DNA of 50,908 nucleotides from Candidatus Altimarinota bacterium. Its GTDB lineage: Bacteria; Patescibacteriota; Gracilibacteria; BD1-5; UBA2023. Position numbers and translations under genes: made by a program. Position 1 is the stretch's first letter, and each line of letters begins with the position of its first letter. The notes beneath the pieces were generated by a model, which did no database searches, was not told the origin of the DNA, and saw nothing but the letters and a program-made list of their open reading frames with translations. The stretch covers positions 1 through 50,908 of the forward strand of contig JANPGO010000011.1 of assembly GCA_031423995.1 (NCBI GenBank), in the 5' to 3' direction. Of the stretch, positions 1-50,908 are shown piece by piece.

Positions 1-1035
1 ATGTATATGTGGCGGGATGATCGAGCGGGGAATATGATCTTTCGTGCACTGCATCAGAAGTCGCGACTCTTTCCAGGTATAGATATCATCATCGAGAAAG
101 ATGCCTTCGGTTCTCGGGTATACAACGCTCAGAAACTCTGGAGTTTCGGGAAGGTAGGGGGAGATATATTTTCTACCGCTTCGATCCAGGCACTCATACA
201 AGATGCGAAAAATATACAATTCGTCTCTATCTGATCCTGATGGCCCCTCAGACTCAAGCACCTGAGAGAAAATAATCACTCCAAGGTATTTCTCTTCGAT
301 GAATTCACTCCCTCGAGTCATGCCCTCATCGGAGGGATGAATATCGCGGATCAGTACCTCACGGCACCCGCACTGATACCTACCGATACTGGGGGTTGGC
401 ATGACTATATGGTGAAGGTGACCGGCGAACTCGCAGACACTATCGCACGATGACGAAGTACCAAAAAACGGTGAAAAATAGAACAAACATTCACCACAGG
501 AGTCGAGATATTCATGACCCTTCGTAATCGTCTCGCCATGCGCAAACGTATCCTGAATGAACTCTCACGTGCAGAGAAATCTATCATCATCGAACATGGA
601 TATCTCACGGATATGAAGATCATCAGACAATTGCGGCGACTCGGTCGTGCCGGTATCGATATCGATGTGATCCTTCCTGATCGTTCTGATGGCGTCTGGC
701 ATGCGAATATGCGAAGTATTCATAGTATTCTGAGACCTTCACTCATCCACCCTCAGAGTGAGAGCCGAATACGAGTATGGCTCTATCCAGGGATGATCCA
801 TGCAAAGGTCATCCTCATCGATAGATCAGTTGCCATCATCGGTTCGGCGAATCTCACCTATGGGAGCTTCGACTTCCTCCATGAGACGAATGCAATATTT
901 CGAGGGAAAAATGGTGTCGTGGGTCTCCTCGCCGATCAGCTCGAGAAGGATATCTCTCTGAGCAGAAAAGTGCTTCTCGCAACCATCCCAAAGTATTCGC
1001 TCATCCTCGCATGGATCCAAAAATGGTTTATATAA
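1..1035 (+). CDS. HKD-family phospholipase D / cardiolipin-synthase-like protein (5' end outside window)
   Basis: Frame 1 joins track ORFs 1..234 and 514..1035 across four in-frame TGA. Two HKD motifs are present (HSKVFLFD and HAKVILIDRSVAIIGSANL). Ends at TAA 1033-1035. Confidence 0.8.
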
Positions 1036-1063
1036 GTGTTTGAATTTGAATAATGTCAGTGTT

Positions 1064-1130
1064 CCGTCATTCTGAACGGAGTGAAGAATCCAGTCGAGAA
1101 AATGGATTCTGGCATTCGCCAGAATGATAA
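1064..1130. repeat. Short copy of the CCGTCATTCTGAACGGAGTGAAGAATCC palindromic repeat family
   Basis: Its 5' arm is identical to 12449-12477. An internal inverted TCATTCTG...CAGAATGA pair is present. It lies in the intergenic space after the PLD gene. Confidence 0.5.
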
Positions 1131-1255
1131 AATTGATTCTATCCAAACAAATTAAGTAATATATACTTCACAAATTCCTCATCCGAAAGCATTGGGAATT
1201 TCGAGTTGACACTCAGGGTGAAAGGATAGAATGAAGGGTATCATAAACTCTTCCT

Positions 1256-3211: not shown

Positions 3212-3482
3212 CTTGACTTCTCATGGAAAGTCATAGAATGAGAAATTATCTCTTCACTCAAAATCTATGCTAGAATGACTACATCCAGATACAGTAAGAC
3301 AAATTCAGGAAAAAATGTCTCCAACAGAACGCCTAAGGAGGCTATGATGAGCAAATACACCCAGTTTAACTTCTTCTAGTGGATGAGAAAGTTGAGTATG
3401 AGCTGAAGCAGCGAGAACACTGAGTAATGGTAGAACTACTGAGGTGCTCTGAAGTCCAGTTAGAAAAAATTGAGAGTAATTC

Positions 3483-6810: not shown

Positions 6811-8691
6811 ATGACACGAAAGCTTCTCATCCTTCTCTTGCCAATAGTTCTCTCAGCATGCAATCTTCTCGGTTCCACAACCAATTCTGACAATCTTCCT
6901 GAACATGATCTCACTACCGACTACTCCCGAGCAATGAATCGGGTGTTTTCAGTTACGTATGATACCGAGTTGAAGAATTTTCTTGATTGAGTTTATCAGA
7001 AATTTGCACCCCCTGGATATGATACCGGAAGTCTTCAGGTATTCTATAATTCCCCGAAGGTTGGAAAGATGGATCTCACGCTTCACGCAGATGCTGTTCG
7101 CGAATCATGGAGAAAGATGTCAGCGAATATGAGTCTCACAGGCAGTATCGAATCACCAGATACGAATATCCGATTCAACGATGTTCGCGGTGGATATATT
7201 AGCCTCTTTCCAGCAAAAACTTTTATCCGACTGGATGCATTTGATATCGTCGGAAGTCTGAACGAGACAATCAAAAAATCTCTCAAATGAAGTCGTCTCA
7301 AACTCGGGACATGGTACTTATCGGATGGTATCCATATACCTCAGAACCTTGTTGATGGGGAGATCTGATCATTCTTTGTTCCATTCACAGCACGACTTAT
7401 CGATGATGTCCTCGATAATGGACTCGTTCATATCAGACGAACACTCGCAAGTCATCCGATACTTGAATCTATCTCTGGTACAGGAAATCTCGTCAATTCG
7501 AACTATGAATATGATGTGCGATATTCGGCCTCTGGCGCGGAGGATCTTTTTCTAACCTTTGTCGATATCTATACCGATACAGGATCGATCACTCCATCGA
7601 TACGATCAACAATCCATGAACTGACGCAGTCGATCAATGGAAAAGGAACATTTCGTATAGATAAGCTCGATCCAAGTATTTTCCACTTTACCGGACGATT
7701 CTTCACACTGAAACGGATGTACGATCTCGCGATCGATGTAGAGAAAAATCATACCTTCTATGAGTTGACGGGAAAGTATTGGGGATTCACTTCAACCTTC
7801 GATCGATTCCCGGATAATCGAGTCCTATACTCACTCGAAATGAAAGATGGAACGGGTTCTACAGAGTGGATCCACTATGAAGGAAAGCCCTCTTCCAAGG
7901 GTCTATATCTCACACTCCGAGTCTGAGATATAGAAACACGAGCACTCCAGATCCAGTATGCGAATACCGCGAATACATTCTCTGGAAGCATAGAAATGCT
8001 TCCCGTTGATCAGAATGCAATATTCTTGAGCTATTCCGGAAAGAGAGAATGAGGAGTCTTGACACGAATTTGAGGGCATATAGAACAGGGAAATACTAAT
8101 ATTGATGGGGATGTTCTCCTTGATTGAGATGAGAATTTCACAGGAACACTCACGACACCAGTTGGAGTATTTCATGCTCTTGATCACATTCATACTGGTG
8201 ATATCTTCATCAAGGGAGAGTCACAGTGATTGACAGCCACACTTGTACAGACTTATACGAATGCAGGACTCCTTGATGGCAAACTTGAACTCCCTGTCGG
8301 GAGTCTCTCATGGACAGGAAAAATATTAGATGGAACAATATCCTGATTCCATTCGGCATTTGTCTCGCCATTCGGACATGTGTCGGTGAATCTCGACCAG
8401 ACAAGCCAGGGCCTCGTCGCTTGACCGTTCATCATTGCTGATGAAAAGAACGAAATCCTCTCAGGAAAACTTCTTCTTCATATCGAGCCAAAAAAACGAG
8501 GATTGAGAATAGATACCACCAATCCGATCGATGGAACACCACTCTCATTTGGGATCGAGACTATTTCCGATATTCTCTGGTCAGAATCTGCTCATGTTGA
8601 TATTCCGAAGGATTATTTTCCTATCGCAGACCTCCTAGGAACAGGGTGAATGGATGGAGTGAATTCACTGCCAGGGCTGTCAGGATTTTAG
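6811..8691 (+). CDS. Large lipoprotein, function unknown (626 aa)
   Basis: Signal peptide with lipobox MTRKLLILLLPIVLSAC. Frame 1 is continuous across many TGAs to TAG 8689-8691, verified codon by codon. Confidence 0.7.
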
Positions 8692-8707
8692 ATACTTTCT
8701 CTTTGCT

Positions 8708-9211
8708 ATGCAATTCTCACACAAATGATTTCTCTTCATAGAAAGTTCCCTCCTCTTCTTCGTGGCATGAGTATGAATTCTTTCTTGAGCGTTTTTTCCA
8801 GCCATGACTTCCTATCTTGAGCGTTCTCGTGATGCAGCACGTATTGCCTGACTCATGCAGTACAAAACCGCACTTCAATGATTCTATGCTGATAACGAAG
8901 TATATCCGACAGAGTCTGATACATCCTGCATTCCTGGGAAAGTCCTCCAGGGAAAATATCTTCTCACGCTCCCGACTGATCCATCGAAGCATCCGACATC
9001 ACCATGCAATGGAGATGAAGGTATGACCTATGCATACCGAACATGGAATGATGCGAGTGGAAAACCTCACTTTCTCCTCTCAGCCCATATGGAGGATGAG
9101 GCGCGGTGAAATTCCCCTAAAGGAATCAATGAATATTCGAATACTGAGCTTCTCTCATGATCAGTTTCATTCATACCGAATAGCGGACAGTATTACTCGA
9201 TATTTTATTAA
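8708..9211 (+). CDS. Type IV pilin / pseudopilin-like protein
   Basis: Class III signal MQFSHKG|FLFIE with Glu at +5, then a hydrophobic helix and SYLERSRDAARIAGL. The -1 Gly is encoded by TGA. Ends at TAA 9209-9211. Confidence 0.8.
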
Positions 9212-13892: not shown

Positions 13893-15413
13893 ATGCAAAA
13901 ACACCTCCACGTCATCGGTATCGGAGGGATCGGTGTCTCAGCACTGGCTCGATACTATCATCACCTTGGCTATTCGATCTCGGGTTCAGATTGATTAGAT
14001 TCTCCACTGCTTGAGACGCTCAGAAAGGAAGGATTCCAGATCCATATCGGTCATGATGTAGGCAATCTTCCTGAAGATACAGATCTCGTCATATATTCGG
14101 AAGCGATCATCACGAAGCCTGATCTCACTCCAGAAGAGCAGATCTACTCGAATCCTGAACTTGCATGTGCTCGAGATCTTGGCATTCGGCATATTTCCTA
14201 TCCTGTTGCCCTCGGTGAAGTCTTCAATGCGAAGCAAGGAATCGCTATCACTGGTTCGCATGGAAAATCAACGACAACGGCTATGACGGGTATTTTGCTG
14301 ACCTCATCCCCAACCCTTCTCCTGAAGGAGAAGGGAGATTCTGGTTCCTCCTCTCTGAAGGAGAGGGGGTTAGGGGGTGAGGTGGGTGCATCCGTACTCG
14401 TGGGGACACAGGTACCACAGCTTGGAAATTCGAACTTTCACTATGAAGAATCCGAAAATTTCGTGATCGAGGCATGCGAATATAAGCGATCATTCCTCCA
14501 GTATCATCCCTATATCACGGTCATTACGAATATCGACCTCGATCACCTCGACTATTATAAAAACCTCGAGGATTATCTCTCTGCGTTCCAGGCGATCGTC
14601 GACCAGACGAGTGGATATGTCATCATCTCAGCGGATGATGAGAATTCTCTGAAGCTCCAGATCCCAGAAGAAAAGAAGATTGTAGTAGGGGGGTCCGAGA
14701 TCCGATATTCAGCAAAGGTTGAAATGCTTTGTCACTGTGGCACAGAAGTGTCATATGAAGAAAAGACTCTGCCGATTCCATCGATGCACCTCCAGGTACC
14801 AGGCGATCATCTCCTCCATGATGCGCATCTTGCCTATACGGTCGGGCGACTTCTCGGAATGCAGGATGATGTGATCGTGGCGAAGCTCGAATCCTATACA
14901 GGTTCTTGGCGGAGATCGGAGATTGTCGGCACAACGAAACATGGAAATATCGTGATGTCTGACTATGGTCACCATCCCAATGAGATCCGTCCGACACTCC
15001 GAGCAATCCGTGAAAAATATGGAGATAAAAAACTCCTCGTGATCTTCCAGCCACATCAGTATTCTCGAACACGTGAGCTCTTGCATGAATTCGCAACAAG
15101 CTTTTCCGATGCTTCAGAACTCATCATTCCGAATATCTACTTCTCTCGGGATAAGCAGGAAGATGTCGAATGGATGACGACAGAGCGACTCATCTCTGCA
15201 ATAGTATGAACAATGAGCAGTGAACAATGAAAAATGAAGATATCGAGCTCCCCTGATAAGGGGGGAAGGGGGGTTTTCTCAGTCAAAAATGGAAATGGAC
15301 TCGAAAATACTGCGAAGCTCATCCGAGAATATGACGAGAAAAATCCTAATTCTTCTATTATTCTCCTCCTCGGAGCAGGGGATGTGGATAAGCTCAGATA
15401 TGAGATAGTCTAA
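13893..15413 (+). CDS. murC: UDP-N-acetylmuramate--L-alanine ligase
   Basis: HVIGIGGIGVSALA, GSHGKSTTTAM, DYGHHPNEI and GAGDV motifs. Frame 3 joins ATG 13893, ORF 14283..15209 and a TGA-containing tail to TAA 15411. Confidence 0.9.
14305..14390. repeat. Twin-hairpin repeat retained in frame inside murC
   Basis: CCCTTCTCC-TGAA-GGAGAAGGG and CCTCTC-TGAA-GGAGAGG encode ...LLLKEKGDSGSSSLKERGLGGEV... between the P-loop and the next conserved MurC block. Confidence 0.5.
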
Positions 15414-16171
15414 TCAAAAAAATCCTCCAAAGAATTGTTCACGAGAGCGTCATTATATCCCATCATAAAAGTCTCTTCCAATATTTTTGGATTATGAGTC
15501 AGTAATTTTGCTGGTATTTCCATATTTCTCACAAGATGTATCGATAATCACTTTCTTTGAAGAGATGAAATATTCTGATCTTGTGCTCTCGATGTATCGA
15601 TAGCAAGTATTTCAGTAGCTCAGAGCAAAATAGCTTTTTCTATAGTTGCAGAAAATGGTGCCGCTACTCAGCCATCAATATACTTTTTCCCATAGAATGA
15701 CTTTACTCATCCATAAAGTACTGGTACTGACATGGACGCTTCTATAATATCGAAAATATCCTCTCATGATACAATATCCCCTCTTGAAAAATATGCAGGA
15801 GTATTCCGCGGAATTTCACTCGCGGTTATGTACCAATTCGTCTTTGTCTGGAGGAACCTATCTATAAAAAGGGGTTTATTTTTTCGAAGAACTGTGTTTA
15901 TGACAAAATCAATACTCATAACCCTATAAATCTTGTATGGATTTATAAAACCTGTATTTGCAAGTTGATTGGTCCAAATATTATAGATTTCATCATACTG
16001 ATCAGTGAGATAATACGTTGCACATCCAGCTCATCCTGATGTAGCAATTATGATATCAGGTTTTTTCGATGGGAATTTTTGGGCAAGTCAACATAAAAAT
16101 CCTCAAGTATATGAACAACGCATTCCTCATCAGGACAGTATTATTGCAGTTTTTTTTGAGCTTGAAATCAT
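15410..16171 (-). CDS. Patatin-like phospholipase
   Basis: ILSGGGMRCSY (oxyanion-hole motif), ATSGGAG (nucleophile elbow) and YIDGGV (Asp of the dyad). The whole 253-codon frame was verified. TAG 15410-15412 overlaps the murC TAA. Confidence 0.85.
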
Positions 16172-16255
16172 GAGTTTTATAGTATCATTTATTATTTCCC
16201 ACGTCAATTTCCTGAAACTTTTTTGTCAAAAATCGTTCATAGATATACTCACCGC

Positions 16256-17440: not shown

Positions 17441-17451
17441 TCCCTGTTACT

Positions 17452-21943: not shown

Positions 21944-22843
21944 TTAGTGCCCATACTTTCTATTCCAGGTTATCTGCCGTTTTGCATAGTTTCGCGAGTG
22001 TTGTTGTACGAGGCGGATAGACTCTTCGAGTGAGATACGTCACTCGAGGTGATCGACCACTTCCTTGTACCCGATCGTCGTGAGACCTGGGCAGGATGAA
22101 TTAAAATTATCTATAATGTATGACACTTCTTCGATAAGTCAAGAGGAAAACATTCCCTTGACCCGTGTATCGATACGGGAATAGAGCTCTGCCCGTTCAC
22201 TATCTGTATACGGTGTAAGAAACAGGGGGGAGAATCGTGGTGTTTTTCGGTTCTTTGACTCTCGTTTCGAATGACCTGTCGCACGAAATACCTCGAGTCC
22301 ACGCATCACATATCGATAATTCCCAACCTCGAGTTCATGAGCGTATTCAGGATCAATATCTTCGAGCATCTTCCAGAGAATTTCATTGCTTCATTCAGTG
22401 CGTATTTTTTCTAGCTCTTCTCGATATGCCCAATCAGGAGGTGTATCTGGGTACGCCATCTCATAGAGAATGCCATCTATGTAGAGCCCTGTCCCGCCAC
22501 AGATGATTGGGATTTTTCCTTTTTTCTGGATGGACTCGATATGTGGAAGAGCCCTATTCACGAAGTCAACGACTGAATATTTCTCACTGGGATCGATCAC
22601 ATCGAGCATATGATGTGGGATTCACTGCATCTCATCTGGACTCACTTTCCCTGTACCGATATCCATGTACCGATAGATCTGTCGGGAATCAGCAGAAATA
22701 ATCTCAGTTCCTAGGTATTTTGCTACTTCGATCGAGAGAGTGGTTTTTCCACAGGCGGTCGGACCATAGATGACGATGAGTGAAGGGAGTGTATGATGTG
22801 CACGAAGAAATTGCTCTATACGCTCTCGGAAGATTGAATTCAT
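21944..22843 (-). CDS. miaA: tRNA dimethylallyltransferase
   Basis: [10 protein letters not shown]-loop and [16 protein letters not shown]. The C-terminal TIGYKE...YAKRQITW is reached by reading through three TGAs that join ORFs 22622..22843, 22391..22609 and 22139..22369. Confidence 0.9.
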
Positions 22844-24089: not shown

Positions 24090-25679
24090 CTAGAAAACTT
24101 CGTCGACGTTGAGAGTTCCTATACCAGCATCGAGACGACATTCGACTGTCCAGTCTCATCCGAAAAGTTTCGTGAGTCATTCACAGATAAGATTGCGTAC
24201 TTTTGGCGTATCGACTCGTCCATGATTCCAAGACTTTGAAAAAATGAGTGTCAGTTTCAGTCCATCTGTTTGGAATCGCGCCGTCTTCAGGTCTGTCATG
24301 AGGGGCAGATTGGTCTCACGAATGTGGTTGATTAAGGCAGGAAAAGAGAATGGTTGGGTAGTGGGGTGGTTGGGTAGTGGGGTGGAGGTAGAAGGAGTTT
24401 CGAGTTTTTGTCATTCTGAACTTATTTCAGAATCCAGTTTCTTTGAATCCTTCTGTACTTTTCATGAACCCATTTCCGTACTTTTGTAACCAAAAGTATC
24501 AAAAGTTTCGGGGGGCAAAAAACTCGCTCCTCCTCGCTCTGCTCATCGATTCTCAGTATTCGTCTTCGCTCAAACAGTTTCGCCCCCCGAACCCCCATAA
24601 GATTGTTTATCATCATCTTTCTTTGAGTTTTGCGATACTTTCGTATTTTCTGGTACAGCAATATTATTTTTATTTCCTCGCTTCACGATCTTCAGAAAGG
24701 TTATCTCAATGAGCATCATCCCATCAGGAATGGTACGGATCTTCGAGTGACCTTCCATGATGAACGTGAAGATGGAATGATACTCTCAGAAACGAGGATC
24801 ATCGATGTATTCGAACAGGAGGTCACGTAGACGATAGAGTATCTGCTCGAAAAGTCCACGAGCATCGATATGTCCACTTCGGAGCGTATCGAGGATTTTG
24901 AGAATTTTTGGTACGTCTTCGAGTCGAAATGCCTCAATAATAGTGTCCACCAGTGCATCATCGACGAGTGCGAGTGTATAGCGAACATGGTCTGATCGGA
25001 CTTCGCGATCGATGATATTCTGCTCGAGGAGCGTGAGCGCATCTCGGAGTCATCCTCGAGCAGCTTTCGCGATGATTCTCAATGCTTCGTCTTCTACAGT
25101 GATTCCCTCAGTTTGGGCAATATACTGCAGTCGAGCAATGATATCTGTTTCAGTGATCTTTCGGAAGTCGAATCTGAGCGATCTCGATCGTATTGTCTCG
25201 GGAACTTTCTCGATCTCCGTGGTGGCGAGGATGAACTTCACATGACTTGGTGGTTCTTCGAGGATCTTCAGGAGGGCATTGAAGGCTCCAGTCGAGAGCA
25301 TATGGACTTCATCGATGATATAGACTTTGTAGGTTCATTGATTGGGTTCGAATCGCGCCTTCTCGATGAGTTCACGGACGTTCTCGACGCCATTGTTCGA
25401 GGCCCCATCGATCTCGATACAGTCGAGCATCATCTCCTGATCGAAGGCGATACAGTTCGTACACTGATGGCAGGGATTTCCATTTTGGAGGTTCATACAA
25501 TTCACTCCCTCTGCGAGGATGCGAGCACTCGTCGTTTTTCCGGTTCCGCGTGAACCATGGAGGAGATAGGCATGTCCGACACGTCCGGTTTTGAGGCTAT
25601 TTCTGAGAATCGTTGTGATGTAGTCTTGCCCGATGACAGAGTCCCAGTCATGAGGTCGGTAGGTCGTATAGAGTGACAC
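24090..25679 (-). CDS. dnaX: DNA polymerase III subunit gamma/tau
   Basis: [21 protein letters not shown], a Cys cluster, IIDEVHMLS and SRSLRF motifs. The frame was followed through TGAs to TAG 24090 (529 aa). Confidence 0.85.
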
Positions 25680-26883: not shown

Positions 26884-28185
26884 ATGATCGATATCAAAAT
26901 TCTCCGTACCAATCCCGAACTCGTCCGAAAAGCGATTCACGATAAAGTGACCAAATGAGTCGATCTCGATGAAGTGATCCGTCTCGACCTCGCTCGCGTG
27001 TCTCTCGGGCAGGAGCTCGATGCTCTCAGGGCCCGACGTAATGATCTCTCGGCGAGCATGGGGAAAGGAAAACCTGAGCCTCATATTCTCGAAGAAGCGA
27101 AATCCATCAAAGAAAAAATCCAATCCCTCGAACCAGAATTTGAGAAAATAGAAGGAGAATTCCTCGCGCTCTACAAGAAAATCCCAAATATCCCAACAGC
27201 CGATACCCCGATCGGACTCACCGAAGAGGAGAATGTCGTCGTGAAACAGTGGGGCACTATTCGACAGTTCGACTTCCCAGTCCGGAATCATGCGGAGATC
27301 GCCGAGATCCGAGGCTGGATCGATAAGGAACGTGCCGCGAATGTGGCAGGATCTCGTTTCGCATACCTGAAGGGTGACCTCGTGAAGCTCCAATTCGCCC
27401 TCATCCAGTGGGTGATGGACACACTCGGGGATTCTGCTGTCCTCGACCAGGTGATCGCCGAAAACGGTCTCACAGTCTCGAATAAGCCATTCACTCCCGT
27501 CCTCCCTCCCTACATGATCAAGACCGCTCCCTATGATGCGATGGATCGCCTCGAGCCTCGTGAAGAACGATACAAAATAGAATGAGAAGATCTCTGGCTC
27601 CAGTGATCTGCTGAGCATGTCCTCGGATCGATGCATGCAGGAGAGATATTTGCAGAATCAGAAATGCCCGTCCGCTACCTCGGATATGCGACGAGCTTCC
27701 GTGGTGAGGCGGGAACCTATGGGAAAGATATGGAAGGGATTATCCGTATGCACCAGTTCGACAAGCTCGAGATGGAGTCATTCTCTATAGCTGAGACCTC
27801 ACATGATGAGCACCTTCTCTTTGCTGGACTTCAGGAGTATCTCATGCAAGCCCTCGAGATCCCGTATCAGAAGCTCCAGAAGTGTACCTTCGACATCGGG
27901 AAACCGAATGCAAAGGGTTCTGATATCGAGGCATGGCTTCCTGGACAGGATAAATACCGTGAGACTCACACTGCCGACTATATGACTGACTATCAGGCTC
28001 GTCGCCTCCAGACACGAGTTCGTCGGACTTCAGGCGATGTAGAACTCATACATACCAATGACGCGACCGCCTTCGCTTGTGGACGTGCTCTCGTAGCTAT
28101 TATGGAGAACTATCAGAATGCAGATGCGACGATCACTGTCCCGAAAGTGCTGAGGAATTATATAGGAGGGAAGGAGAGGATCTAA
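26884..28185 (+). CDS. serS: Seryl-tRNA synthetase
   Basis: N-terminal coiled-coil arm plus class II motifs (SAEHVLGSMH, FRGEAG..GKDMEGIIRMHQF, TNDATAFACGRAL). Three track ORFs are joined by TGAs in frame 1. Confidence 0.95.
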
Positions 28186-28202
28186 TAACCTAAAATTTGT
28201 TT

Positions 28203-28922: not shown

Positions 28923-29006
28923 TTTATTACCTATTCTATTTTTTAAATATTTAAATTGAGCAAGTTAATTTTGACAAATATATAATTCATCGTACATCCA
29001 TATCTC

Positions 29007-33782: not shown

Positions 33783-34343
33783 TTATCTCTTGGTTCCTCA
33801 TCTTTCGAGATCGAGGAGCCATTTTTTGCGTTCGAGCCCTCAACCATATCCGATAAGGTCACCTGATGCACCGATCACACGATGACAGGGAATGATGATG
33901 ACTATGGGATTCTTATTATTCGCTCAGCCGATCGCGCGGACTGCCTTCGGGTTTCATGCGAGTATTGCTTCTTCCTTGTAGCTTCTTGTTTCACCGTATG
34001 GGATTTTCTGAAGAGCTTTCCATGACTGTAATTGGAAGTCTGTCCCTACGGGCTCATGGGTAAGAGTGAAGGATTTTCTCGTTCCAGCGAAGTATTCTCC
34101 GAGTTGGAGTTCGGTTTCTTTGAGGATCTTGTTGTTACCGTCATCGCGAAGCATGAAGCGATCAAGTCAGTAAACAGAATCCTTTTTTTGTCACTGGTTT
34201 GCCACGTCGCTATAGCTCCTCGCAATGTCGGAAATCTTTTTCTCGAGTCCTTTTGAATCTGCGAACTCGAGGAGGATGAGGCGTGTCTCACTCGCGACAG
34301 CGATGAGGTCACCGAGAGGGGAGGGGATAGTATGAGAGTGCAT
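33783..34343 (-). CDS. ogt: Methylated-DNA--protein-cysteine methyltransferase
   Basis: IPCHRVIG active site, YGETRSY, NP.AVRAIG. The frame was verified from ATG 34343 through TGAs to TAA 33783. Confidence 0.85.
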
Positions 34344-35303: not shown

Positions 35304-37211
35304 ATGACTGTAACTGCTGATAACACACATTACCTGGAACAAGCACAAGATTTGCCGGAATGATTGGATGTAATCCCAACTTTTTTATCATTCTGAGATG
35401 CAAAAGTAACTGTTTCTAAGTATGCATCTATCATAGGAGGTACAGTTGCAACTCAACACCAGAATGGTGTTAATGATCTTAGAAATGCTCTAGAATCTGC
35501 TACAACAGCGCCACTTCCTGTACCACAATCTGGAATCCTTGATGAACTTGATAGAATTGTATCATTGGCTCAAAGAATCAACTGGACAAACAGCCCATGA
35601 ACATATACCCTATTGAAACCTGAAGTTACAGAAATATTTTGATTAATAAATGAATTCTGGAGGGAAATAATGACAAGAAGAGATGATCAAAATTTTATCG
35701 AATGTCTAAGGGGAAAAAACGGAATGAATTTTATCGCTTTGATGAATAATTTCTGACGGTATCTTGCAGTGACGGAAAATGAAGATCATGCATATTTATT
35801 CTTTCGATGATCAATTGATCTTGCTCGTTATCTCCGAGCAAGACAATTTTGTTTTGATGCATACGTGAATATTCTAACCTGTTTACCCAAACGATTCCAT
35901 CCAAGAAATACTGATCAACACATAGATGCATTAGAAGAATTTGCTCATGATGCGAATACTTGATTCTATTCAAAAGAGCCAGAATTTATTCAGACAGATG
36001 ATTGATCAAAAGCATTCCAGAGAAAAGATGCTGCTGAGAGAAGAATGAAGTGACTCAGAAATATACATTCAATAGAGATACTTCGGTTGCTCTCTTTCTT
36101 CAGAGTTGATTCAGAATTTGATATATTTAGTGAAGATTTTAGTCGTAATGTTGAAGCATTTGAGGATGTTAAAGCAACATTTACGTCATCTTTTAGGAGT
36201 CCTGATAGTCCATCCAATTGACTTATATTGGCCGATGGCAGAGTCCTTCCAGTGAATATCGGGTGAACTTTCGATATACATATGGCAGAATCACTCGCTT
36301 CTATAGAATTACAAATTGCCAAAGCAATACAATTAGCAAAGGGTAGAAATAACTTACCTGCTCTATTATCAAAATATGTATCTCATTCTTTCTGGACGAA
36401 TTATCAATCAGAAGATATATCAACGCGGACGATCATTTTTTCAAAGCCATTTGTACAAGTATTTTCTGAGCGATATTTCATGCAGGCTCTTGCTCATGCA
36501 GTTTCATTTAGTGCTGACGGGGATTCAGTTAGAGAATTCAATATTTTCAAAGAAGAAGTTATATATATGATAGTACAGGCTATTGCATGATATCCTGACG
36601 CTAGTGTATGAGATTCCAATGCCGCGGTATGAAATACACTTTATGATTATTTTACACTACATAAAACTGATCCAGCTGTCTTACTTTTTTTAGGCAACGT
36701 ATTACCTTGAATAAGAAGTGCAGCTGAATATTTCAGGACGTATCTAGTGAAGAATGCGAGAAGAATAGTATCAGATGCTATCACAAAGATTGTGGGTGCT
36801 CGATGATGGACAATTACTGTACATGGTATACCACTTATTATTTCATGAAGAATTCAATCTTGATCATACCAAAGAATTCGTATGGATGAAGATTATTGAC
36901 TCGAGATAAATATTTCATGACCAGAAAAACTTAATAAAATAGTCTCTAACTGTCTTGTACAGCCAGCACTTACGAGATGGATCCTCAATCTAATGGCAGA
37001 AGAACATAAGGCTCTGCTTAATAAGGCAATTAAACATTCAAAAAGTATTGCTAAAACAATAGATATTGCTTGTCAATGAGCTAATCGATTGCTAGCCCAT
37101 CTTGATTTTCCATGAAGTGAAAAATTGAGGAAAACAATTTTAGCAATTTCAACGAATGTTTGAGCATTATCAAGATGAGAACCACCAGTGAGAGGCGATA
37201 TTGATGAATAA
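35304..37211 (+). CDS. Hypothetical A+T-rich orphan protein (635 aa)
   Basis: Frame 3 is continuous from ATG 35304 through ORF 36282..36590 to TAA 37209 with many TGAs. 35304-36284 was checked codon by codon; the rest was checked against the sequence lines. No motif recognised. Confidence 0.65.
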
Positions 37212-37700: not shown

Positions 37701-38216
37701 ATGTACTATACACTCGCTGTCACATTCACGACTGACCGACTCCGTGCTCTCCAGAATCTGATCAAGAAGATTGATGCAGAGGCACAGGAAGGTGGCATCC
37801 CTGATCAACGTATCATGGATATGCGGCTCACAGCAGATATGTTCCCATTCTCTCGTCAAGTACAGATTGCCACAGATAATGCTAAAGGGATGGCATCTCG
37901 ACTTGCCGGGAAGGAGACGCCGAACTATGAAGACAAGGAATCAAGTCTTGCAGAGCTCACTGAGCGACTCGAGAAGACAATCAACTATCTCAATTCACTT
38001 ACAGAGGATGACTTTGCTGGTGCTGAACAGCGAGAAGCACGCTTCCCATGGTTTCCTGATATGCATATGAAGGGGGGTGGATACCTCCTCTCCTATGCAA
38101 TCCCGAACTTCATGTTCCATGTCACGACTGCCTATGCGATCCTCAGACATCATGGATTCGAAGTTGGCAAGAGTGACTTCCTCGGAACCCTTCCTCTCAT
38201 TCCTGATGCAAAATAA
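37701..38216 (+). CDS. DUF1993-like protein
   Basis: Uninterrupted 171-aa track ORF. The family assignment is from overall sequence resemblance only. Confidence 0.7.
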   Translation: MYYTLAVTFTTDRLRALQNLIKKIDAEAQEGGIPDQRIMDMRLTADMFPFSRQVQIATDNAKGMASRLAGKETPNYEDKESSLAELTERLEKTINYLNSLTEDDFAGAEQREARFPWFPDMHMKGGGYLLSYAIPNFMFHVTTAYAILRHHGFEVGKSDFLGTLPLIPDAK

Positions 38217-38223
38217 TACACCT

Positions 38224-39159
38224 ATGCAACGCTACGCTCTCACTGTTAATGATCTCAAGAAAGTCTATACCAATGGAACAATTGCCCTTCGAGGAATCAC
38301 CTTTCATATTGAGAAGGGTGATTTTTTCGCGCTCCTTGGCCCGAATGGGGCAGGGAAGTCGACAACAATCGGCATCATCTCCTGACTCGTGAACAAGACG
38401 AGCGGACATGTCGTCATCGGAGGTCATGACCTCGATACCGCTGGAGCGGATGCTCGACTCGGAGTCGGGATTGTACCACAGGAATTCAACTTCGGAATAT
38501 TCGAAAAGGTCTATGATATTGTCCTCGCCCAGGCAGGATACTATGGGATCGCCCCAAACATTGCTGCTCCTCGAGTCGAGAAATACCTCACGGCTCTCGG
38601 ACTCTGGGAGAAGCGAGATGTCCAAGCTCGGATGCTCTCCTGAGGGATGAAGCGACGACTCATGATCGCTCGTGCCCTCGTGCATGAGCCAGAACTCCTC
38701 ATCCTCGATGAACCGACCGCAGGAGTCGATCTCGAGCTCCGACATGGAATGTACGAATTCCTCCGTGAACTGAATGCTTCCGGAAAGACGATCATCCTCA
38801 CGACACATTACCTCGAAGAGGCAGAATCACTCTGTCGCAATATGGCGATCATCGATAAGGGGGAGATCGTGAAATATGGACCGATTCGCGAACTTCTCGC
38901 TTCTATGGAGGATGAGGTCATCACGATCGATCTCGATCGATCATATAGTGGATCAACACTTGGTGAATATCATCCAGTGCATCTCGAGAACGCTGTCGAT
39001 CTCACAGTCTCCTCACATCATACGCTTGACAGAGCGATCCAAATGCTCCAAAGTGAATGATACAAGATCCGAACTATGAAGCCAAAAAGTGGAAGACTCG
39101 AAGAGTTCTTCCTCAAGAGTACTCAAGAAAGTGGAAATCTTCTCGGACAAAAGGCATAG
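38224..39159 (+). CDS. ABC transporter ATP-binding protein (ABC-2 exporter type)
   Basis: Walker A GPNGAGKST, signature LSGGMKRRL (first Gly is TGA), Walker B LLILDEPT and H-loop TTH. Ends at TAG 39157. Confidence 0.9.
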
Positions 39160-39184
39160 TCTCTCCAAGAGTAAACTATTTCCT

Positions 39185-39712
39185 ATGAATACTGTCTCTC
39201 TGGATCAAGTATCACCACTGCAGAGAAAACTCATTGGAGCGGTGTGTATTGTTTCTGGTCTGAGTATCATACTGGTTGCTTGTGGAATTATCCCGGTCGA
39301 CCCGAGTCGGATCTATGTCCCACTCTGGGTACTCGGTGTCTCTGGACTTGCCTTTCTGGTTGTCGGAATTATGGCATTGATATTCTGAAGTCTTTTGAGA
39401 AGAGGATCGAACATCTTCTGAGCAATCATACTGATACTTTTTTGTAGTATTGCCTGATGGATTGCTTTCTGACCATGACCTCGGGTGTTCAATGGAGGGT
39501 CTGTGAGTCCATTGGTTGGTCGGATGGTGTTCGGATTGAGTACATTTATCCTCTTCTTCCTCGCATCGTGGGCAGGTGCTCTCACATATAGGAATGAGCC
39601 AGAAGAGTCAGAGAAAACGGTTGAGCTTCCGAATTGAGTTCTAATAGTCCTACTGATTGCAGTCATCACGGAAATTATTGTCTTTCGAAACTTTCTCCTT
39701 CCCGATGGATAG
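39185..39712 (+). CDS. Multi-pass membrane protein (175 aa)
   Basis: ATG 39185 lies within ORF 39089..39388 and continues in frame 2 through TGAs to TAG 39710, verified. Confidence 0.55.
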
Positions 39713-40663: not shown

Positions 40664-42403
40664 CTATTTTGAATTTTCACTCAATCGTTTCGGTGGTTGC
40701 GGAACAAATGGTTTTGGATTCACCTTCTTTGCTCGAGGTGAACGAGTCCTCTCAGGCTTATCTCAGTCTATTCTTTCTGACTTCTTCTGTTGTTCACTCT
40801 GAGTTGCTGCAAGCGCCTTGTTCTTGCTCCAGCTTCGCTCTGCACGTTTATTGATCCGTTGTGGCTTTGCATCCTTCTCACTATCAGTATCTTTTCATTC
40901 TTTCTTTCCAGAATAGAAGGAATTTTTTTTCTGTTCCCATGGCTTCCCAGTTGGTGATTTTTTCTGAGTATCCTTTTCCCAATAGGCATACTTCTTCTCT
41001 GGAACTGATCATTTCGGAGCACCCTTGTTCTCGCTTCTCTCAGGACGAGGATGTCAGAATGATGATTTCTCCTTTTTCTCAAATGATTTTGGTGATCTCT
41101 CAGATTTCGGAAACGTTCCTCATTCTTTTTTCTCTGTATATCTTCGAGATGGTTCGCTCTGTGGTCGAGCAGTTCGTTCTTCTCTCTGAGAAAATCATTT
41201 CTCTTGTGGATTTCCTCGAGGATTTGATCGTGTATTTTGAGGCTTTAAAATCTTCACAGGATGCTCATCCTGAAGCGGGAATGGATGGTTATTGACTACT
41301 GGAACTTTCTTCGCTATGAGACTTTCGATATCACGGAGGTATTCGCGCTCTTCACTGTCACAAAATGATATTGCCGTTCACTTGGCACCCGCTCGTCCTG
41401 TCCGTCCGATACGATGCACATAGGTCTCAGCAATATTCGGTATCTCATAATTGATCACGTATTCGAGCTCATCGATATCGATCCCACGAGCCGCGATATC
41501 CGTCGCGACGAGAACACGAGTGGTCTGTGCCTTGAAGTTCGCGAGGGCTCGCTGACGAGCATTCTGCCCCTTGTTCCCGTGTATTGCCTCAGCGATAATC
41601 CCATGTTCCGTGAGCATGCGGACGACCTTGTCAGCTCCATGTTTGGTCCGAGTGAAGACGAGAACGGTCTTGATATTCTGATCCTCAAGGAGGTGTTTGA
41701 GGAGGTGATTCTTATTGAGGCGATCGACATAGTAGATCTCCTGCTTGATCACTTCGACGGTCGAAGAGACAGGAGTGACGGTCACTTTCGATGGTTTCTG
41801 GAGAATCGTCTCAGCGAGCTTCACAATCTCAGGAGGCATCGTCGCTGAGAAAAAAAGTGATTGGCGTTTTTTCGGGAGCATGGTGATCAGTTTCTTCACG
41901 TCATGAATAAATCCCATATCGAGCATACGATCCGCTTCATCGAGAACAAAGATCTCGATATCAGCGAGAGAAATATGCTTCTGACCGATGAGATCCATGA
42001 GGCGTCCTGGCGTCGCAATCAATATATCAATCCCTGCATCGAGCGTATTCACTTGAGCAAACTGTCCGACTCCACCGAAGATGACTGTCGAACGAAGTGA
42101 AGTATACCGTCCATATGCTCGAAAACTTTCCTGAATCTGTACAGCGAGTTCACGAGTGGGAGTGAGGATAAGGGAGCGGATTTTTCTCTTCTTCTCAGTT
42201 CGTGGAGTAGCGTTCAGGAGCTGAATAATCGGGAGTGCAAATGCTGCCGTCTTCCCAGTTCCTGTCTGTGCGCAGCCAAGAAGATCAGTTCACTCGAGGA
42301 TGATGGGAATAGATTGTTCCTGAATAGGAGTGGGGGAAGTATATCACTCTTCGGCAAGGGACTTCAGAATCGGTTCGATCAGGTTCAAATCAGTGAATTG
42401 CAT
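40664..42403 (-). CDS. DEAD-box ATP-dependent RNA helicase with a long K/E/R-rich C-terminal tail
   Basis: Q motif (GYTSPTPIQ), [21 protein letters not shown] and [10 protein letters not shown]. The tail frame was verified codon by codon to TAG 40664. Confidence 0.9.
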
Positions 42404-45239: not shown

Positions 45240-45247
45240 GATTTCGA

Positions 45248-46182: not shown

Positions 46183-46845
46183 ATGCAACATGAATCCATT
46201 TTCCTCGATCATCACTTTGAACTCTCAGAATCAGAATTGAGTCAGTTTGAGAGATTTCTTACGATTTTTCGCGAGTACAATAATCATACGAATCTTTCCG
46301 CAATTCGAGATGAAGTAGGTATTGTGGAGAAACACTTCATCGATTCCCTCTATGGAGCACCTGTTATTCTCGAGCTTCTTGAGATGAGCAAAAAAGAAAC
46401 CGAATGATTCAGGCTTCTCGATATCTGATCTGGATGATGATTCCCAGGGATTCCACTCAAGATCGTTCTTCCCGATCTGAGGATGACTCTTCTCGATTCT
46501 ATCGGAAAAAAAGTGAAGGCAATGAACCACTTTATCCAAGAACTCGGACTTACAAATATCACCGCAATACAAGATCGTGCTGAGAACTTAGCGAAAGACT
46601 CACATCATCATGGATCATATGACATCATCGTCTCACGAGCAACGGCATATATGACGGATATTCTCGCATGGTCTGTACCATTCCTTACTCCCTGAGGGAG
46701 AATCATCCTCTACAAAATGCCGTCAGAGGACGAGAAGCGAGATATACAAAAAATAACGAAAAAACTCTGACTCATTCTCGAAAATGAACAGAAGTATGTT
46801 CTCTGAGAAAAAGAACGAATTCTCTATATTTTCGCAAAAAAATAG
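46183..46845 (+). CDS. rsmG: 16S rRNA (guanine527-N7)-methyltransferase
   Basis: LLDIGSGGGFPGIPL, in which three of the glycines are TGA. ORFs 46183..46407 and 46483..46695 are joined. Ends at TAG 46843. Confidence 0.9.
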
Positions 46846-46942
46846 ATAGAGTGATTGCTTTGATATGCGGTATTGTTATTTTTTTGCATTTCTAGAAAGT
46901 ATATGATAGGATAATTGTACGCTTATCCATAATCTTCTTTCT

Positions 46943-47083: not shown

Positions 47084-47117
47084 TGATCTCGGGGTTGTAT
47101 GCTATGTGCAAAGAAAC

Positions 47118-47141
47118 CTTCCATTTTTTGGAAGTTTTTTT
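47118..47141 (+). terminator. Rho-independent terminator
   Basis: CTTCCA-TTTTT-TGGAAG hairpin followed by T7. Confidence 0.5.
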
Positions 47142-47312
47142 ATGTTTGCGAGTAAGAATTTGGTAGTATAAGGTAAAGATTTCAGAGTAAATGATGTAGC
47201 CGTCATATAATATTAAACATTAAATATTATATCATGCAATATGAAGTCCGTGACAAAATCTGAGAAATAGTCTAGTATAACCAGAGCAACCAGTATACCA
47301 ATATAAAAATTC

Positions 47313-50300
47313 ATGCGTTTTCTCGATAAATATACACAATCATTCGTACAGCCACGTCCGTGGAGCACTGCTTGGATCGCACTCCAATGGTGAAATCTTC
47401 TTTTCTGGAAGAAGCTCACGGCAATTCTTACTCTTTTTTGTCTTCTTGCATCGTATTTTCCGATTCAAGCATATTTCTCTCGATGACTCGAGTACCTTCC
47501 CTATGCAGATGCCCTCTACGAGAAGAAGATTGTCGATGTTCCATACACAAGGAACGATATGCTCGACTATGTGAGCCAAGATGAAGCACTTCGCATAGCG
47601 ATCAATATTGGCTGATGACTGGATTTTGACTGCCATGGCTCTCGTCACCTCTCACCGAATACAGAGAATATCTACGATTGTGCCTATGCTGGATATGCAG
47701 AGAAGAAGGGAATTATTTCAGCATCCTATACACCAACTGATTATACGAGTCGTATCGCTGCAGTTCGTTCACTCGTCGTCGCATCATGACTTCAGCAATC
47801 ATCACATGGAATTCCCTATGTTGATGTCCAAAGTGAGACTGGGTATATTGCGCGTGCCTATGATGTCGGCTGTCTCCCGAGTTCGAATTATTTCTATCCG
47901 GATACCTATATCTCTCGTGGTGAGATGCTCAAGCTCTCTGACTGTATCAATACGGCGATTGCTTCATCCGTCTCCATGACGATCCCGAAGAGTCATGTGA
48001 TTGCTTCATCCTCGAATCCAATACTCGTACAAAATCAGCCACCTCTCCCTGTGGTATCTATTTCTGTTCTTTCGGGAGAGAATTCAGTATCAGATCCTCA
48101 AAACGTTGTTCCAGTTCCTCCTCATTCAAATACTGGTATAATTCAAACAGGATCAACTCTAGAATCTGGAGCACTTGCTCTTCAGGGTCAAACAATCGTG
48201 ACACGGGAAGTTATTCGTGAAAAAATCGTGGAAGCAACAGGATCGAATATCATCCTTCCACAGGCATCAAATACTCTTCTCGGCTATGACAGCAATGGTA
48301 CGCTCATCACGGTCGGTATTGGATCAGGAGTAGAAATCATCGGAGGGAAAATACAGGCACATCCACTCGTCATCAATACTTCCGAGACATTCAGTGCAGC
48401 TCCGAGTACTCCACCACAGATGAATACTGTAGTTCCTCCATCCAATCTCCTCTACCCATCAACACCACTTCTTCAGTTCCAGGGAATTCCTGGTGGAGGA
48501 GGTTCGAGCTCTATCACTTCTGTCTTCGGTAGAAATGGAATCGTTACCGCAACAGCAGGGGACTATACAACCGATCTTGTCACTGAGGGATCACGTCTCT
48601 ACTTCACGGACCTGAGAGCACAGAATGCACTTTCCGGAAGTATCCTGGCTCTGAACACTGCTATCACGACACTTTCTGGGGCGATCGGAGTGGCTTCATA
48701 TTCAGGATTTCTCTCACTCACCTCTGATGTTTCGAACCTCTCAGGAACGGTGATGAGCCTTGGGAATTCTCTCATAACTTTTTCTGGTGCATTCGGAAAC
48801 TTCGGAAGTACTCTCACAGTTCTCTCGGGTACACTCAATATCCTCAGCGCGGATGTTGGAAGCCTTTCGGGCATACTGAGTAACACCAATTCTGGACTCG
48901 TTTCTCTGGGGAATCTCATGAATACACTTTCCGGAACTCTTGCAACGCGTATAGGACTCTCGGATCTCTCTGCAACAGGAGGAATCACGTATAATGTATT
49001 AAGTTGACTCTTTGGCTGGAATGGTACTACCTCGAATATTGCCGAGTGATTAAATCTTTACTATACTCAGGGACGATTTGATAGTGCTTTCTCAGCGAAA
49101 TCAACGAGCAATCTCACAGAAGGATCCAATCTCTACTTCACTGACCTCAGAGCTCAGAATGCACTTTCTGGATCAATCGGAAGTCTGACAAATAATTTTA
49201 CGACACTTTCTGGAGTGGTTGCGACCATAGGAAGTACACTCGATACCGTTTCTGGAAGTATTCTCAATTTTTCTTGATCGCTTTCCGTTCTTGCTTCACA
49301 AGTTGCGTCTCTCTCTGGAAGTATCAGTTCAGTTTCTGGAAGTCTCGATCTCCTCTCGAATACGGTAACGACTCTTTCAGGGGCAGTATGAGTCATAAAT
49401 AGCGGGCTTATCGCAGCGAATGGAAATATTTCTACACTCTTTTCTGGTCTTTCGAGTGCAACAGGAACTCTTGCAACCATTGCAGGAAATGTTGCGACAC
49501 TTTCTGGAGTTCTCTCGGCACAAAGCGCAAGTATCACTGCCCTCAACTCAGATATTGGAGTCTTAAGTGGCAGCATAGCAACACTTTCGGGAATGGTGAT
49601 AGGAATCAATGCTACTCTCGCAACTCTCTCGGGCACTCTCGCAACAACGAATACAAATCTCTCTGGTCTTTCAAGTACAGTCAGTATACTTTCTGGAACT
49701 GTTACTGCGCAAGGCAATACTCTTATCAATCTCGGATTAAATCTTGCTACCGCAACAGGAACAATAAATGTCCTTTCTGGAACTGTTTCCACTCTTTCAA
49801 CTGATCTCAATACACTTTCGGGTTCAGTAAATGCTCTTTCAGGACTGACTTCCAGTATTGCTTCGAATCTCAACACAACGAATTCCAACCTCGCAACAGC
49901 AACAGGAAATATCCTCTCTCTCCAGAACAACCTCGCGACAACAACGGGATCATTAAATACGGTTATTGTGAACCTCGCAACCGCAACAGGAAATATCGCT
50001 ACATTTTCTGGTTCTCTTGGTATCCTTTCTGGCAATCTTGCAACAACGAACTCCACTCTCAATACTCTCTCAGGTGTTATCGCAGGAAAGATTGGACTTG
50101 CTGACCTCTCAGCAATTGGGCCTATTGCCTATAATAATCTCACAGGGAATTTCTCATTCACTTCTGGATCTGATGGTCAGGTTCTGATGATGTCAGGTAG
50201 CCAATTTGTCTGGAAAAATCCAACAACAGTCGGTTCATCAGTCACGAGTATATTTGGTCGAACAGGTGATATTCTCGGGCAAATAGGGGATTATACAACG

Positions 50301-50908
50301 GCACTTGTGACAGAATCAGGATCCAATCTCTACTTCACAGATCTGAGAGCACAGAATGCTCTTTCTGGAAGTATCGGAAGTCTTTCTGGAACGCTCGCAT
50401 CACTTTCAGGTACGGTTAATACACTTTCTGGGATGATCAATCTCATGAATGCGAACTATACAACTCTCACATTCTCAGTTGCAGGAATTGGAAATAGTCA
50501 GATCGCACTTCAAAATAATTTTAATGCGCTTTCTTGATCTGTTGCTTCGCTCTCAGGAGTCGTTCTCTGAATCGGGAATAACCTTACAATTCTTACCGCT
50601 GACGTCAATACACTTTCATGAAGGGTGAATACGCTTTCTGGCGTAGTGGATAGTGCAAATACCAACATCGCTACTCTTTTCACCAACCTCGCAACCGCTA
50701 CTGGAAACATCGCTACACTCTCAGGAAATCTCAACACCACCAACACAAATCTTACCAATCTCACAACAAGCTTCAACACTCTTTCCGGAAATGTAGTCAC
50801 CCTCTCAGGAGTCGTTGCTACCAAGATCGGACTCACGAGCCTCTCAGTCAACTGACCACTCACATACAATAATGGTACCGGACTCTTCGGCATCAATATA
50901 GCCAACTC
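47313..50908 (+). CDS. Giant repetitive surface/fibre protein (3' end outside window)
   Basis: Frame 3 runs from ATG 47313 (47313-47927 verified codon by codon) through ORFs 47925..49007, 49593..50537 and 50625..50855. It has an N-terminal signal anchor, an SLH-like segment (FYPDTYISRGEMLKL) and then heptad xxLSGxx repeats. Confidence 0.75.

What the first reader, a model, noticed from the sequence alone, without database searches (positions are those of the whole stretch)
1..50908. TGA is a sense (glycine) codon throughout; the standard-code ORF track is systematically fragmented
Over forty genes become full length only when in-frame TGA is read through, and every gene then ends at TAA or TAG. 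The TGA codons sit on invariant glycines. Examples are RsmG DIGSGGGFPG (46426-46452), ABC signature LSGG (38641), patatin SGGG, GxSxG and DGG, the prepilin -1 Gly (8726), Ogt GYGGG, and the SIGA box of the four-helix-bundle gene. This pattern fits Gly (table 25), not Trp (table 4). Any standard-code annotation of this contig would report dozens of false pseudogenes.
Basis: partly seen in the sequence, partly recalled or inferred. Interest (0 to 1): 0.6.

Follow-up and report, generated by a model that had tools for sequence, protein, structure and literature searches.

The report
TGA read as glycine, Gracilibacteria

Summary
Of 30 window genes with a Pfam match, 26 carry TGA inside the matched domain (82 codons), and all end at TAA or TAG. 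In alignments with standard-code homologues TGA sits on glycine. Across the whole genome, at conserved columns against 63 Saccharibacteria loci, the count is G 30 of 35 and W 0. In PDB alignments of five window proteins, 13 of 20 TGA positions are G and none is W. Within the clade, window TGA pairs with GGN (75) or TGA (35) and never with TGG (0 of 169).

The decoding machinery lies elsewhere in the genome. A tRNA(UCA) with G1:C72, C2:G71, G3:C70 and U73 is conserved in 41 of 41 relatives. RF1 is the only class-I release factor found, and RF2 is absent from 81 of 81 genomes of the order. A dimeric GlyRS is present and selA is not found. SerRS is 91% identical to that of Candidatus Gracilibacteria MAGs. 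All 61 sense codons read as standard, including CGA and CGG as Arg.

Two caveats apply. With TGA as sense, long shadow ORFs abound (3.5-fold coverage), so ORF length alone proves nothing. "Over forty genes" is validated for 32 of 35 checked genes. The code change itself is already known.

The parts
46426..46440 (+). RsmG SAM-binding motif D-I-[TGA]-S-G-[TGA]-[TGA]-F-P-G, with three TGA codons at 46426, 46435 and 46438
   Evidence: Read directly from the sequence. Pfam GidB match at 8e-39. In PDB RsmG of T. thermophilus, B. subtilis and E. coli the three positions are G/G/G, A/A/P and G/G/G.
38641..38643 (+). TGA at the second-last residue of the ABC signature L-S-[TGA]-G in the ABC ATPase gene (about 38230-39159)
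   Evidence: Read directly from the sequence. Pfam ABC_tran match at 6.5e-31.
8726..8728 (+). TGA at the -1 position of the prepilin cleavage site K-[TGA]-F-L-F-I-E in the pilin-like gene 8654-9211
   Evidence: Read directly from the sequence. Weak Pfam ComP_DUS match.
15410..16200 (-). Patatin-like phospholipase gene with eight TGA codons in the Pfam envelope, including the motifs S-x-x-G-M-R, A-T-S-G-x-A-G and D-G-x. The 5' boundary is approximate.
33783..34343 (-). Ogt (O6-methylguanine-DNA methyltransferase) with TGA in G-Y-G-[TGA]-G and upstream of the PCHRV active site
   Evidence: Pfam match at 2.9e-32. Aligned with M. tuberculosis Ogt (4bhb), the four TGA positions read G, L, G and S.
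21944..22843 (-). MiaA with four in-frame TGA codons. The Pfam IPPT match covers profile positions 1-242 of 243.
   Evidence: Positions X74, X235 and X268 are G in the best PDB homologue; X151 is variable.
26884..28185 (+). SerRS with three in-frame TGA codons. The gene was used for placement in the taxonomy and for the test against Saccharibacteria.
   Evidence: The third TGA column is G in 68 of 68 homologues that lack in-frame TGA. The second is G in 46 of 68. Close relatives have GGN or TGA at both sites.
24090..25679 (-). DnaX with nine in-frame TGA codons
   Evidence: Against E. coli tau, X114 is G and X210 is S.
40664..42403 (-). DEAD-box helicase with nine in-frame TGA codons
   Evidence: The three TGA positions aligned to Vasa-type structures are all G.
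1..50908 (.). The whole window: 159 in-frame TGA codons in 32 validated genes, 19% of glycine codons. All stops are TAA (18) or TAG (14).

Best explanation
The window belongs to a Candidatus Gracilibacteria (BD1-5/GN02, CPR/Patescibacteria) genome that uses NCBI genetic code 25.

UGA is an ordinary glycine codon here. It makes up about 19% of the glycine codons in this window. A dedicated tRNA(UCA) decodes it. This tRNA keeps the acceptor-stem and discriminator identity elements of bacterial tRNA-Gly, so the cell's GlyRS is presumed to charge it.

Release factor 2, which would recognise UGA, has been lost. RF1 alone terminates translation, at UAA and UAG.

Shown here: in-frame TGA in conserved domains, TGA-to-Gly correspondence in homologues, the tRNA gene and its conservation, RF1 as the only release factor found, and placement in Gracilibacteria. 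Inferred: charging of tRNA(UCA) by GlyRS and actual incorporation of glycine in this organism. Proteomics demonstrated that incorporation for another BD1-5 bacterium (PMC4032931).
For: Domains. 26 of 30 Pfam-supported genes have TGA inside the matched envelope.

Standard-code homologues. At conserved columns TGA gives G 30 of 35 and W 0; over all aligned pairs the counts are G 865 and W 2. In SerRS the third TGA column is G in 68 of 68 standard-code homologues.

PDB. Alignments of MiaA, RsmG, Ogt, DnaX and the DEAD helicase show G in the best homologue at 13 of 20 TGA positions and W at none.

Within the clade. Window TGA pairs with GGA 43, TGA 35, GGT 19, GGG 8, GGC 5 and TGG 0, out of 169 aligned positions. 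TGG pairs with TGG 97 times and never with TGA. An earlier, smaller set gave the same pattern.

Composition. Glycine is 7.5% of residues if TGA counts as Gly and 6.1% if it does not. Trp would be 2.7% if TGA were Trp, against 1.2% from TGG alone.

Machinery. The tRNA(UCA) lies at C90:2481-2559 and carries G1:C72, C2:G71, G3:C70, U73 and an encoded CCA. It scores 42 bits against Rfam tRNA, has a 7/5 acceptor/T-stem structure, and is not Sec-like. It is present in 41 of 41 relatives, with an invariant CUUCAAC anticodon loop and compensatory changes in the T-stem. prfA scores 458 bits, above its cut-off, and itself contains 5 in-frame TGA. prfB is not found in this genome or in any of 81 genomes of the order, 69 of them at least 90% complete. 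A dimeric GlyRS is present and selA is not found.

Taxonomy. SerRS is 86-91% identical to that of Candidatus Gracilibacteria MAGs.

Literature. UGA=Gly in Gracilibacteria and Absconditabacteria, and the same criteria for tRNA identity, are described in PMC8629427. Proteomics found 97 peptides unique to the UGA-Gly translation against 3 for UGA-Trp in PMC4032931.
Against: There is no direct protein-level evidence for this organism.

The assembly is 87% complete, so the absence of prfB in this genome alone would be weak. The 0 of 81 result across the order makes up for this.

Some TGA positions align with non-glycine residues in distant homologues: D, S, K, R and L at a minority of sites. This is the same scatter as seen for GGN codons (GGA gives G at 70 of 85 conserved columns).

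The tRNA has A36 where the Gly identity element is C36, as it must for any UCA anticodon. Its charging by GlyRS is therefore inferred.
Confidence: 0.97

Rival explanations
1. TGA is read as tryptophan (table 4), as in Mycoplasmatales and several insect endosymbionts.
For: TGA and TGG differ by a single base, and table 4 would open the same reading frames.
Against: W appears at none of the 35 conserved columns and in 2 of about 1470 aligned pairs. TGA never exchanges with TGG among 169 and 112 aligned positions within the clade. The tRNA(UCA) has U73 and G1:C72, whereas this genome's tRNA-Trp(CCA) has G73 and A1:U72. Trp content would be an implausible 2.7%.
Confidence: 0.01
2. The standard code applies, and the TGA codons are real stops in a decaying, pseudogene-ridden or mis-assembled genome.
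For: Under table 11 the ORF track is fragmented.
Against: Eighty-two TGA codons lie inside full-length Pfam matches of 26 genes, including essential ones such as SerRS, DnaX and MiaA. The TGA positions are conserved or exchange with GGN in relatives. RF1 itself contains 5 TGA. No RF2 is found.
Confidence: 0.005
3. UGA has a dual or ambiguous meaning. It might be mostly Gly but read as stop or Trp in some contexts, or tRNA-Gly(UCA) might also misread UGG through U34 wobble.
For: The possibility of U34 wobble onto UGG is raised in the literature (PMC8629427). The published proteomics found 3 peptides unique to the UGA-Trp translation (PMC4032931).
Against: No release factor for UGA was found. 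TGG columns stay W and TGG never exchanges with GGN or TGA. All validated genes end at TAA or TAG.
Confidence: 0.02
4. TGA encodes selenocysteine.
For: ARAGORN labels the tRNA 'SeC' because of its UCA anticodon.
Against: TGA makes up 1.4% of codons, 159 in 32 genes. The tRNA has a normal 7/5 structure with a short variable loop and matches RF00005. selA is not found. TGA aligns with Gly, not Cys or Sec.
Confidence: 0.001

Closest known systems
NCBI genetic code 25 (UGA = Gly) of Gracilibacteria (BD1-5/GN02) and Absconditabacteria (SR1). Campbell et al. 2013 and Rinke et al. 2013 as cited in PMC8629427; Hanke et al. 2014, PMC4032931.
   Same: UGA falls in frame at glycine positions. The tRNA(UCA) carries G1:C72, C2:G71, G3:C70 and U73. 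RF2 is lost and RF1 is kept. The genome is small (about 1.4 Mb) and belongs to the CPR, and its SerRS is up to 91% identical to that of named Gracilibacteria MAGs.
   Different: Nothing of substance differs. GC content is 42%, within the published range of 0.21-0.53. TGA is a fairly frequent glycine codon here, at 19%.
Absconditabacteria code with the additional change CGA/CGG = Trp (Shulgina and Eddy 2021, PMC8629427), which the paper also predicted for CGG in some Gracilibacteria
   Same: The UGA=Gly background is shared, and this genome also has tRNA(UCG) and tRNA(CCG) genes.
   Different: Here CGA and CGG read as Arg. At conserved columns CGA gives R 19 of 25 and CGG gives R 2 of 3. Over all pairs CGG gives R 153 and K 86, with W not among the top six. 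CGG exchanges with CGN and AGR and never with TGG. The tRNA(CCG) has an A73 discriminator.
Genetic code 4 (UGA = Trp) of Mycoplasmatales, Entomoplasmatales and insect endosymbionts
   Same: The same stop codon is captured and RF2 is lost.
   Different: The amino acid is Gly, not Trp. The decoding tRNA derives from or resembles tRNA-Gly, not tRNA-Trp.

Membership tests
Genetic code 25 (UGA=Gly; Gracilibacteria/Absconditabacteria) | In-frame UGA inside conserved protein-coding genes | tested here: met
   26 of 30 Pfam-supported genes have TGA inside the domain envelope, 82 codons in all.
Genetic code 25 (UGA=Gly; Gracilibacteria/Absconditabacteria) | UGA aligns with glycine in homologues from standard-code organisms | tested here: met
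   G at 30 of 35 conserved columns and W at 0. In PDB alignments, 13 of 20 positions are G and 0 are W. One SerRS column is G in 68 of 68 homologues.
Genetic code 25 (UGA=Gly; Gracilibacteria/Absconditabacteria) | tRNA with anticodon UCA and glycine identity elements (G1:C72, C2:G71, G3:C70, U73; criteria of PMC8629427) | tested here: met
   C90:2481-2559 carries all four elements. The tRNA is conserved in 41 of 41 relatives.
Genetic code 25 (UGA=Gly; Gracilibacteria/Absconditabacteria) | Release factor 2 absent and release factor 1 present | tested here: met
   prfA scores 458 bits, above its cut-off. No prfB scores above its cut-off in this genome or in 81 genomes of the order. This genome is only 87% complete.
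Genetic code 25 (UGA=Gly; Gracilibacteria/Absconditabacteria) | Phylogenetic placement within the recoded clade | tested here: met
   The best SerRS matches, at 86-91% identity, are Candidatus Gracilibacteria MAGs. This rests on a single marker; no tree was built.
Genetic code 25 (UGA=Gly; Gracilibacteria/Absconditabacteria) | Glycine found at UGA positions in the protein (mass spectrometry) | not testable with these tools
   Shown for another BD1-5 bacterium: 97 peptides unique to the UGA-Gly translation against 3 for UGA-Trp (PMC4032931).
Genetic code 4 (UGA=Trp) | UGA aligns with tryptophan, and a tRNA-Trp-like tRNA(UCA) with G73 is present | tested here: not met
   W at 0 of 35 conserved columns. 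The tRNA(UCA) has U73 and G1:C72, while tRNA-Trp(CCA) has G73 and A1:U72.
Absconditabacteria-type CGA/CGG=Trp reassignment | CGA and CGG align with Trp, and a tRNA(UCG/CCG) has Trp identity | tested here: not met
   CGA and CGG align with Arg and exchange with Arg codons only. The CGG sample at conserved columns is small, at 3.
Selenocysteine decoding of UGA | A tRNA-Sec structure and the selA/selB machinery, with UGA rare | tested here: not met
   The tRNA has a normal cloverleaf structure. selA is not found. TGA makes up 1.4% of codons. selB was not searched.

The most novel reading that the evidence does not exclude
The evidence does not exclude that this particular genome carries a second layer of unusual decoding. 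An orphan tRNA on another contig (C63:15544-15618) has an alanine-type acceptor stem (G3:U70, A73), a 4-bp anticodon stem and an 8-nucleotide anticodon loop, CCUUAGA-A. It lacks an encoded CCA and is absent from 40 relatives. It could act as a UAA/UAG suppressor or read a four-base codon. More likely it is a degenerate or recently acquired tRNA copy with no effect on the code. No in-frame TAA or TAG was seen in the validated genes.
Probability: 0.03. Interest if true: 0.6.

Novelty: already known. Interest (0 to 1): 0.1.

Why it matters
The practical point is annotation. This contig and genome must be annotated with translation table 25. Table 11 would cut at least 26 of 30 recognisable genes into fragments, and table 4 would put Trp at catalytic glycines.

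There is also a method caveat. With only two stop codons, and with TA dinucleotides depleted, code-25 genomes produce many long shadow ORFs. ORF length cannot be used on its own to call genes or to infer the code.

Scientifically the recoding is textbook for Gracilibacteria. This genome adds one more confirmed member. It also gives a negative result for the CGG/CGA=Trp change that has been predicted in some relatives.

Tried and rejected
(1) A self-trained codon-usage gene caller was not reliable. It missed the ABC ATPase, patatin and RsmG genes and gave the true ABC frame a negative score. Gene calls were therefore based on Pfam matches and on conservation in relatives.

(2) ORF length under table 25 was rejected as evidence, because shadow ORFs give a 3.46-fold coverage. 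Six long shadow ORFs had no Pfam match. The 608-aa ORF at 37886-39709 first taken for the ABC gene was in the wrong frame. The true gene lies in the frame of 37744-39159.

(3) tRNA and Rfam scans of the window found nothing. The decoding machinery lies on other contigs.

(4) An alignment of tRNA loci failed at first because the loci carry flanks. It was redone on positions 1501-1579.

(5) Trp, Sec and pseudogene readings were considered and rejected, as set out under the rival explanations.

(6) CGA/CGG=Trp and AGG reassignment were checked and not found.

(7) The odd tRNA on C63 was checked for conservation and found in none of 40 relatives. Its neighbours are housekeeping genes, not phage genes. 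It was not pursued further.
Full report
**What is in the window.** The window is contig C11 of a 1.44-Mb, 121-contig assembly with 42% GC, 87% complete. TA dinucleotides are depleted (observed/expected 0.65) and GA and TC are enriched (about 1.5). Each strand holds about 400 TAA, about 400 TAG and about 1300 TGA trinucleotides.

Under table 11 the longest ORF is 405 aa. With TGA as sense, the window has 275 ORFs of at least 100 aa covering it 3.46-fold. This matters for method. Reading TGA through opens many overlapping shadow frames, so "ORFs become long" is not in itself evidence for recoding. Six long shadow ORFs (390-869 aa) had no Pfam match. A self-trained codon-usage caller also mis-called several loci. 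I therefore relied on homology.

**Observation check.** Pfam scans of table-25 translations gave matches for 30 genes. These include a PLD-like protein, RlmL, inorganic pyrophosphatase, a pilin-like protein, a Mur ligase, patatin, three MFS transporters, 2-oxoacid:ferredoxin oxidoreductase alpha/gamma and beta subunits, Sua5/TsaC, MiaA, an AI-2E transporter, DnaX, SerRS, an AAA ATPase, Ogt, an ABC ATPase, a DEAD-box helicase, an ABC-2 permease, a NYN/LOTUS protein and RsmG.

In 26 of the 30, TGA lies inside the Pfam-matched stretch, 82 codons in all. The longest TGA-free piece is often less than 60% of the domain.

- At 46426 the sequence gives L-D-I-x-S-G-x-x-F-P.
- At 38641 it gives M-L-S-x-G.
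- At 8726 it gives K-x-F-L-F-I-E.
- The patatin and Ogt motifs are as described.
- The "SIGA" box reads AIxA, in a frameshifted four-helix-bundle gene.

In 32 validated genes with fixed starts there are 159 TGA codons. This is 1.44% of codons and 19% of glycine codons. Stops are TAA 18 and TAG 14. Counting patatin, the ABC ATPase and RsmG as well, 32 of 35 validated genes contain TGA.

**Which amino acid.** Three independent lines of evidence agree on glycine.

(a) Solved structures, none of which comes from a recoded organism. With X at each TGA, alignments of MiaA, RsmG, Ogt, DnaX and the DEAD helicase covered 20 TGA positions. The best homologue has G at 13 of them and W at none. The other 7 are variable sites.

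(b) A Codetta-like tally. Genome-wide ORFs were aligned by tblastn to 63 loci of standard-code Saccharibacteria and other CPR bacteria, fetched through SerRS. This yielded 31 gene families.
- At columns at least 80% conserved, TGA gives G 30, D 2, S 1, R 1, K 1 and W 0.
- GGA gives G at 70 of 85 such columns.
- TGG gives W at 8 of 11.
- Every sense codon with adequate counts gives its standard meaning, including CGA and CGG as Arg.
- In SerRS, the third TGA column is G in 68 of 68 homologues without in-frame TGA.

(c) Substitutions within the clade. Window genes were aligned codon by codon to syntenic DNA of genomes of the same genus and family.
- Of 169 aligned TGA positions, 43 pair with GGA, 35 with TGA, 19 with GGT, 8 with GGG, 5 with GGC and none with TGG.
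- TGG pairs with TGG 97 times and never with TGA.
- CGG pairs with Arg codons. A smaller set gave the same pattern.

Composition agrees with this. Gly is 7.5% of residues if TGA is Gly. Trp would be 2.7% if TGA were Trp.

**Machinery.** A 79-nt tRNA with anticodon UCA lies at C90:2481-2559. It has G1:C72, C2:G71, G3:C70, a U73 discriminator and an encoded CCA. These are exactly the criteria Shulgina and Eddy used to call tRNA-Gly(UCA) (PMC8629427). It matches Rfam tRNA (42 bits) with a normal cloverleaf, not tRNA-Sec. It differs from the genome's tRNA-Trp(CCA), which has A1:U72 and G73.

The tRNA is present in all 41 relatives searched, covering 28 genera and 3 families of the order. Its anticodon loop is invariant and its T-stem shows compensatory changes.

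The only class-I release factor is prfA, at 458 bits and above its cut-off, and it contains 5 in-frame TGA. The prfB model hits only that same gene, below its cut-off. No genome among 81 of the order, 69 of them at least 90% complete, has a prfB above cut-off, whereas 10 of 10 bacterial control genomes do. A dimeric GlyRS is present. selA is not found.

**Taxonomy and novelty.** SerRS is 86-91% identical to that of several "Candidatus Gracilibacteria bacterium" MAGs and about 60% identical to that of Saccharibacteria. UGA=Gly in Gracilibacteria and Absconditabacteria has been known since 2013 and is NCBI table 25. It has been confirmed by proteomics (PMC4032931) and by Codetta (PMC8629427).

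That paper also predicted CGG=Trp in some Gracilibacteria. This genome does not show it, though the CGG sample at conserved columns is small.

Earlier notes from this scan on other parts of the same genome also treat it as a code-25 Gracilibacterium. They did not change my reading.

**Mechanism: shown and inferred.** Shown here: the sense use of TGA, its correspondence to Gly, the tRNA gene, the set of release factors, and conservation across the clade. Inferred: aminoacylation of tRNA(UCA) by GlyRS, and exclusive insertion of Gly.

**Verdict.** The biology is already known, so interest is low, apart from the practical warning about annotation and shadow ORFs.

Noticed in passing
G000 contig C63:15544-15618 (+), outside the window (locus L111:1501-1575): An orphan tRNA (Rfam tRNA, 45 bits) with an alanine-type acceptor stem (G3:U70, A73), a 4-bp anticodon stem with a G.G mismatch and an 8-nt anticodon loop CCUUAGAA. 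The anticodon reads UAG or UUA depending on register. It has no encoded CCA, unlike the genome's other tRNAs. It is absent from 40 relatives. It lies between the DHFR and riboflavin kinase / lumazine synthase genes.
   Followed up: partly
window 1-50908: TA dinucleotides are strongly depleted (0.65) and GA/TC enriched (about 1.5). TAA and TAG are rare in all six frames. Under code 25 this produces shadow ORFs up to 869 aa long and a 3.46-fold ORF coverage.
   Followed up: partly
window 35304-37211 (+): A 635-aa ORF with 24 in-frame TGA codons (3.8% of its codons). It has no Pfam match and no match in the fetched syntenic regions of relatives. It may be an orphan gene or a lineage-specific insertion.
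   Followed up: no
window 20559-20900 (+): A four-helix-bundle gene of the 23S-rRNA-intervening-sequence type is split between frame 1 and frame 3 by a frameshift. It sits between the oxidoreductase beta subunit gene and the Sua5/TsaC gene. Its conserved box reads AI-[TGA]-A. An earlier first-reader note covers the same spot.
   Followed up: partly
G000 contig C90:2481-2559 and contig C65:626-702 (-), outside the window: The tRNA-Gly(UCA) has an unusual 10-nt D-loop, AAAAGAGUGA, with A where the consensus has G18. This D-loop is largely conserved among the relatives aligned; two of them differ at two positions. ARAGORN finds the only other glycine tRNA in the assembly (GCC) only at a lowered threshold, and its acceptor stem is G1-C2-A3.
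   Followed up: partly
window 15413-17446 (-) against 16223-17440 (+): The patatin reading frame continues upstream as a 678-codon open frame that runs antisense through the whole neighbouring MFS transporter gene. This is a clear example of a shadow-ORF extension that would inflate a naive gene call.
   Followed up: yes
loci L107-L110 (G004:C1, same genus) against window 1700-28000: The genome labelled 'same genus' is syntenic with the window over about 26 kb but only about 65-80% identical at the DNA level. The region after serS (window 28200-30000) has no counterpart there.
   Followed up: no
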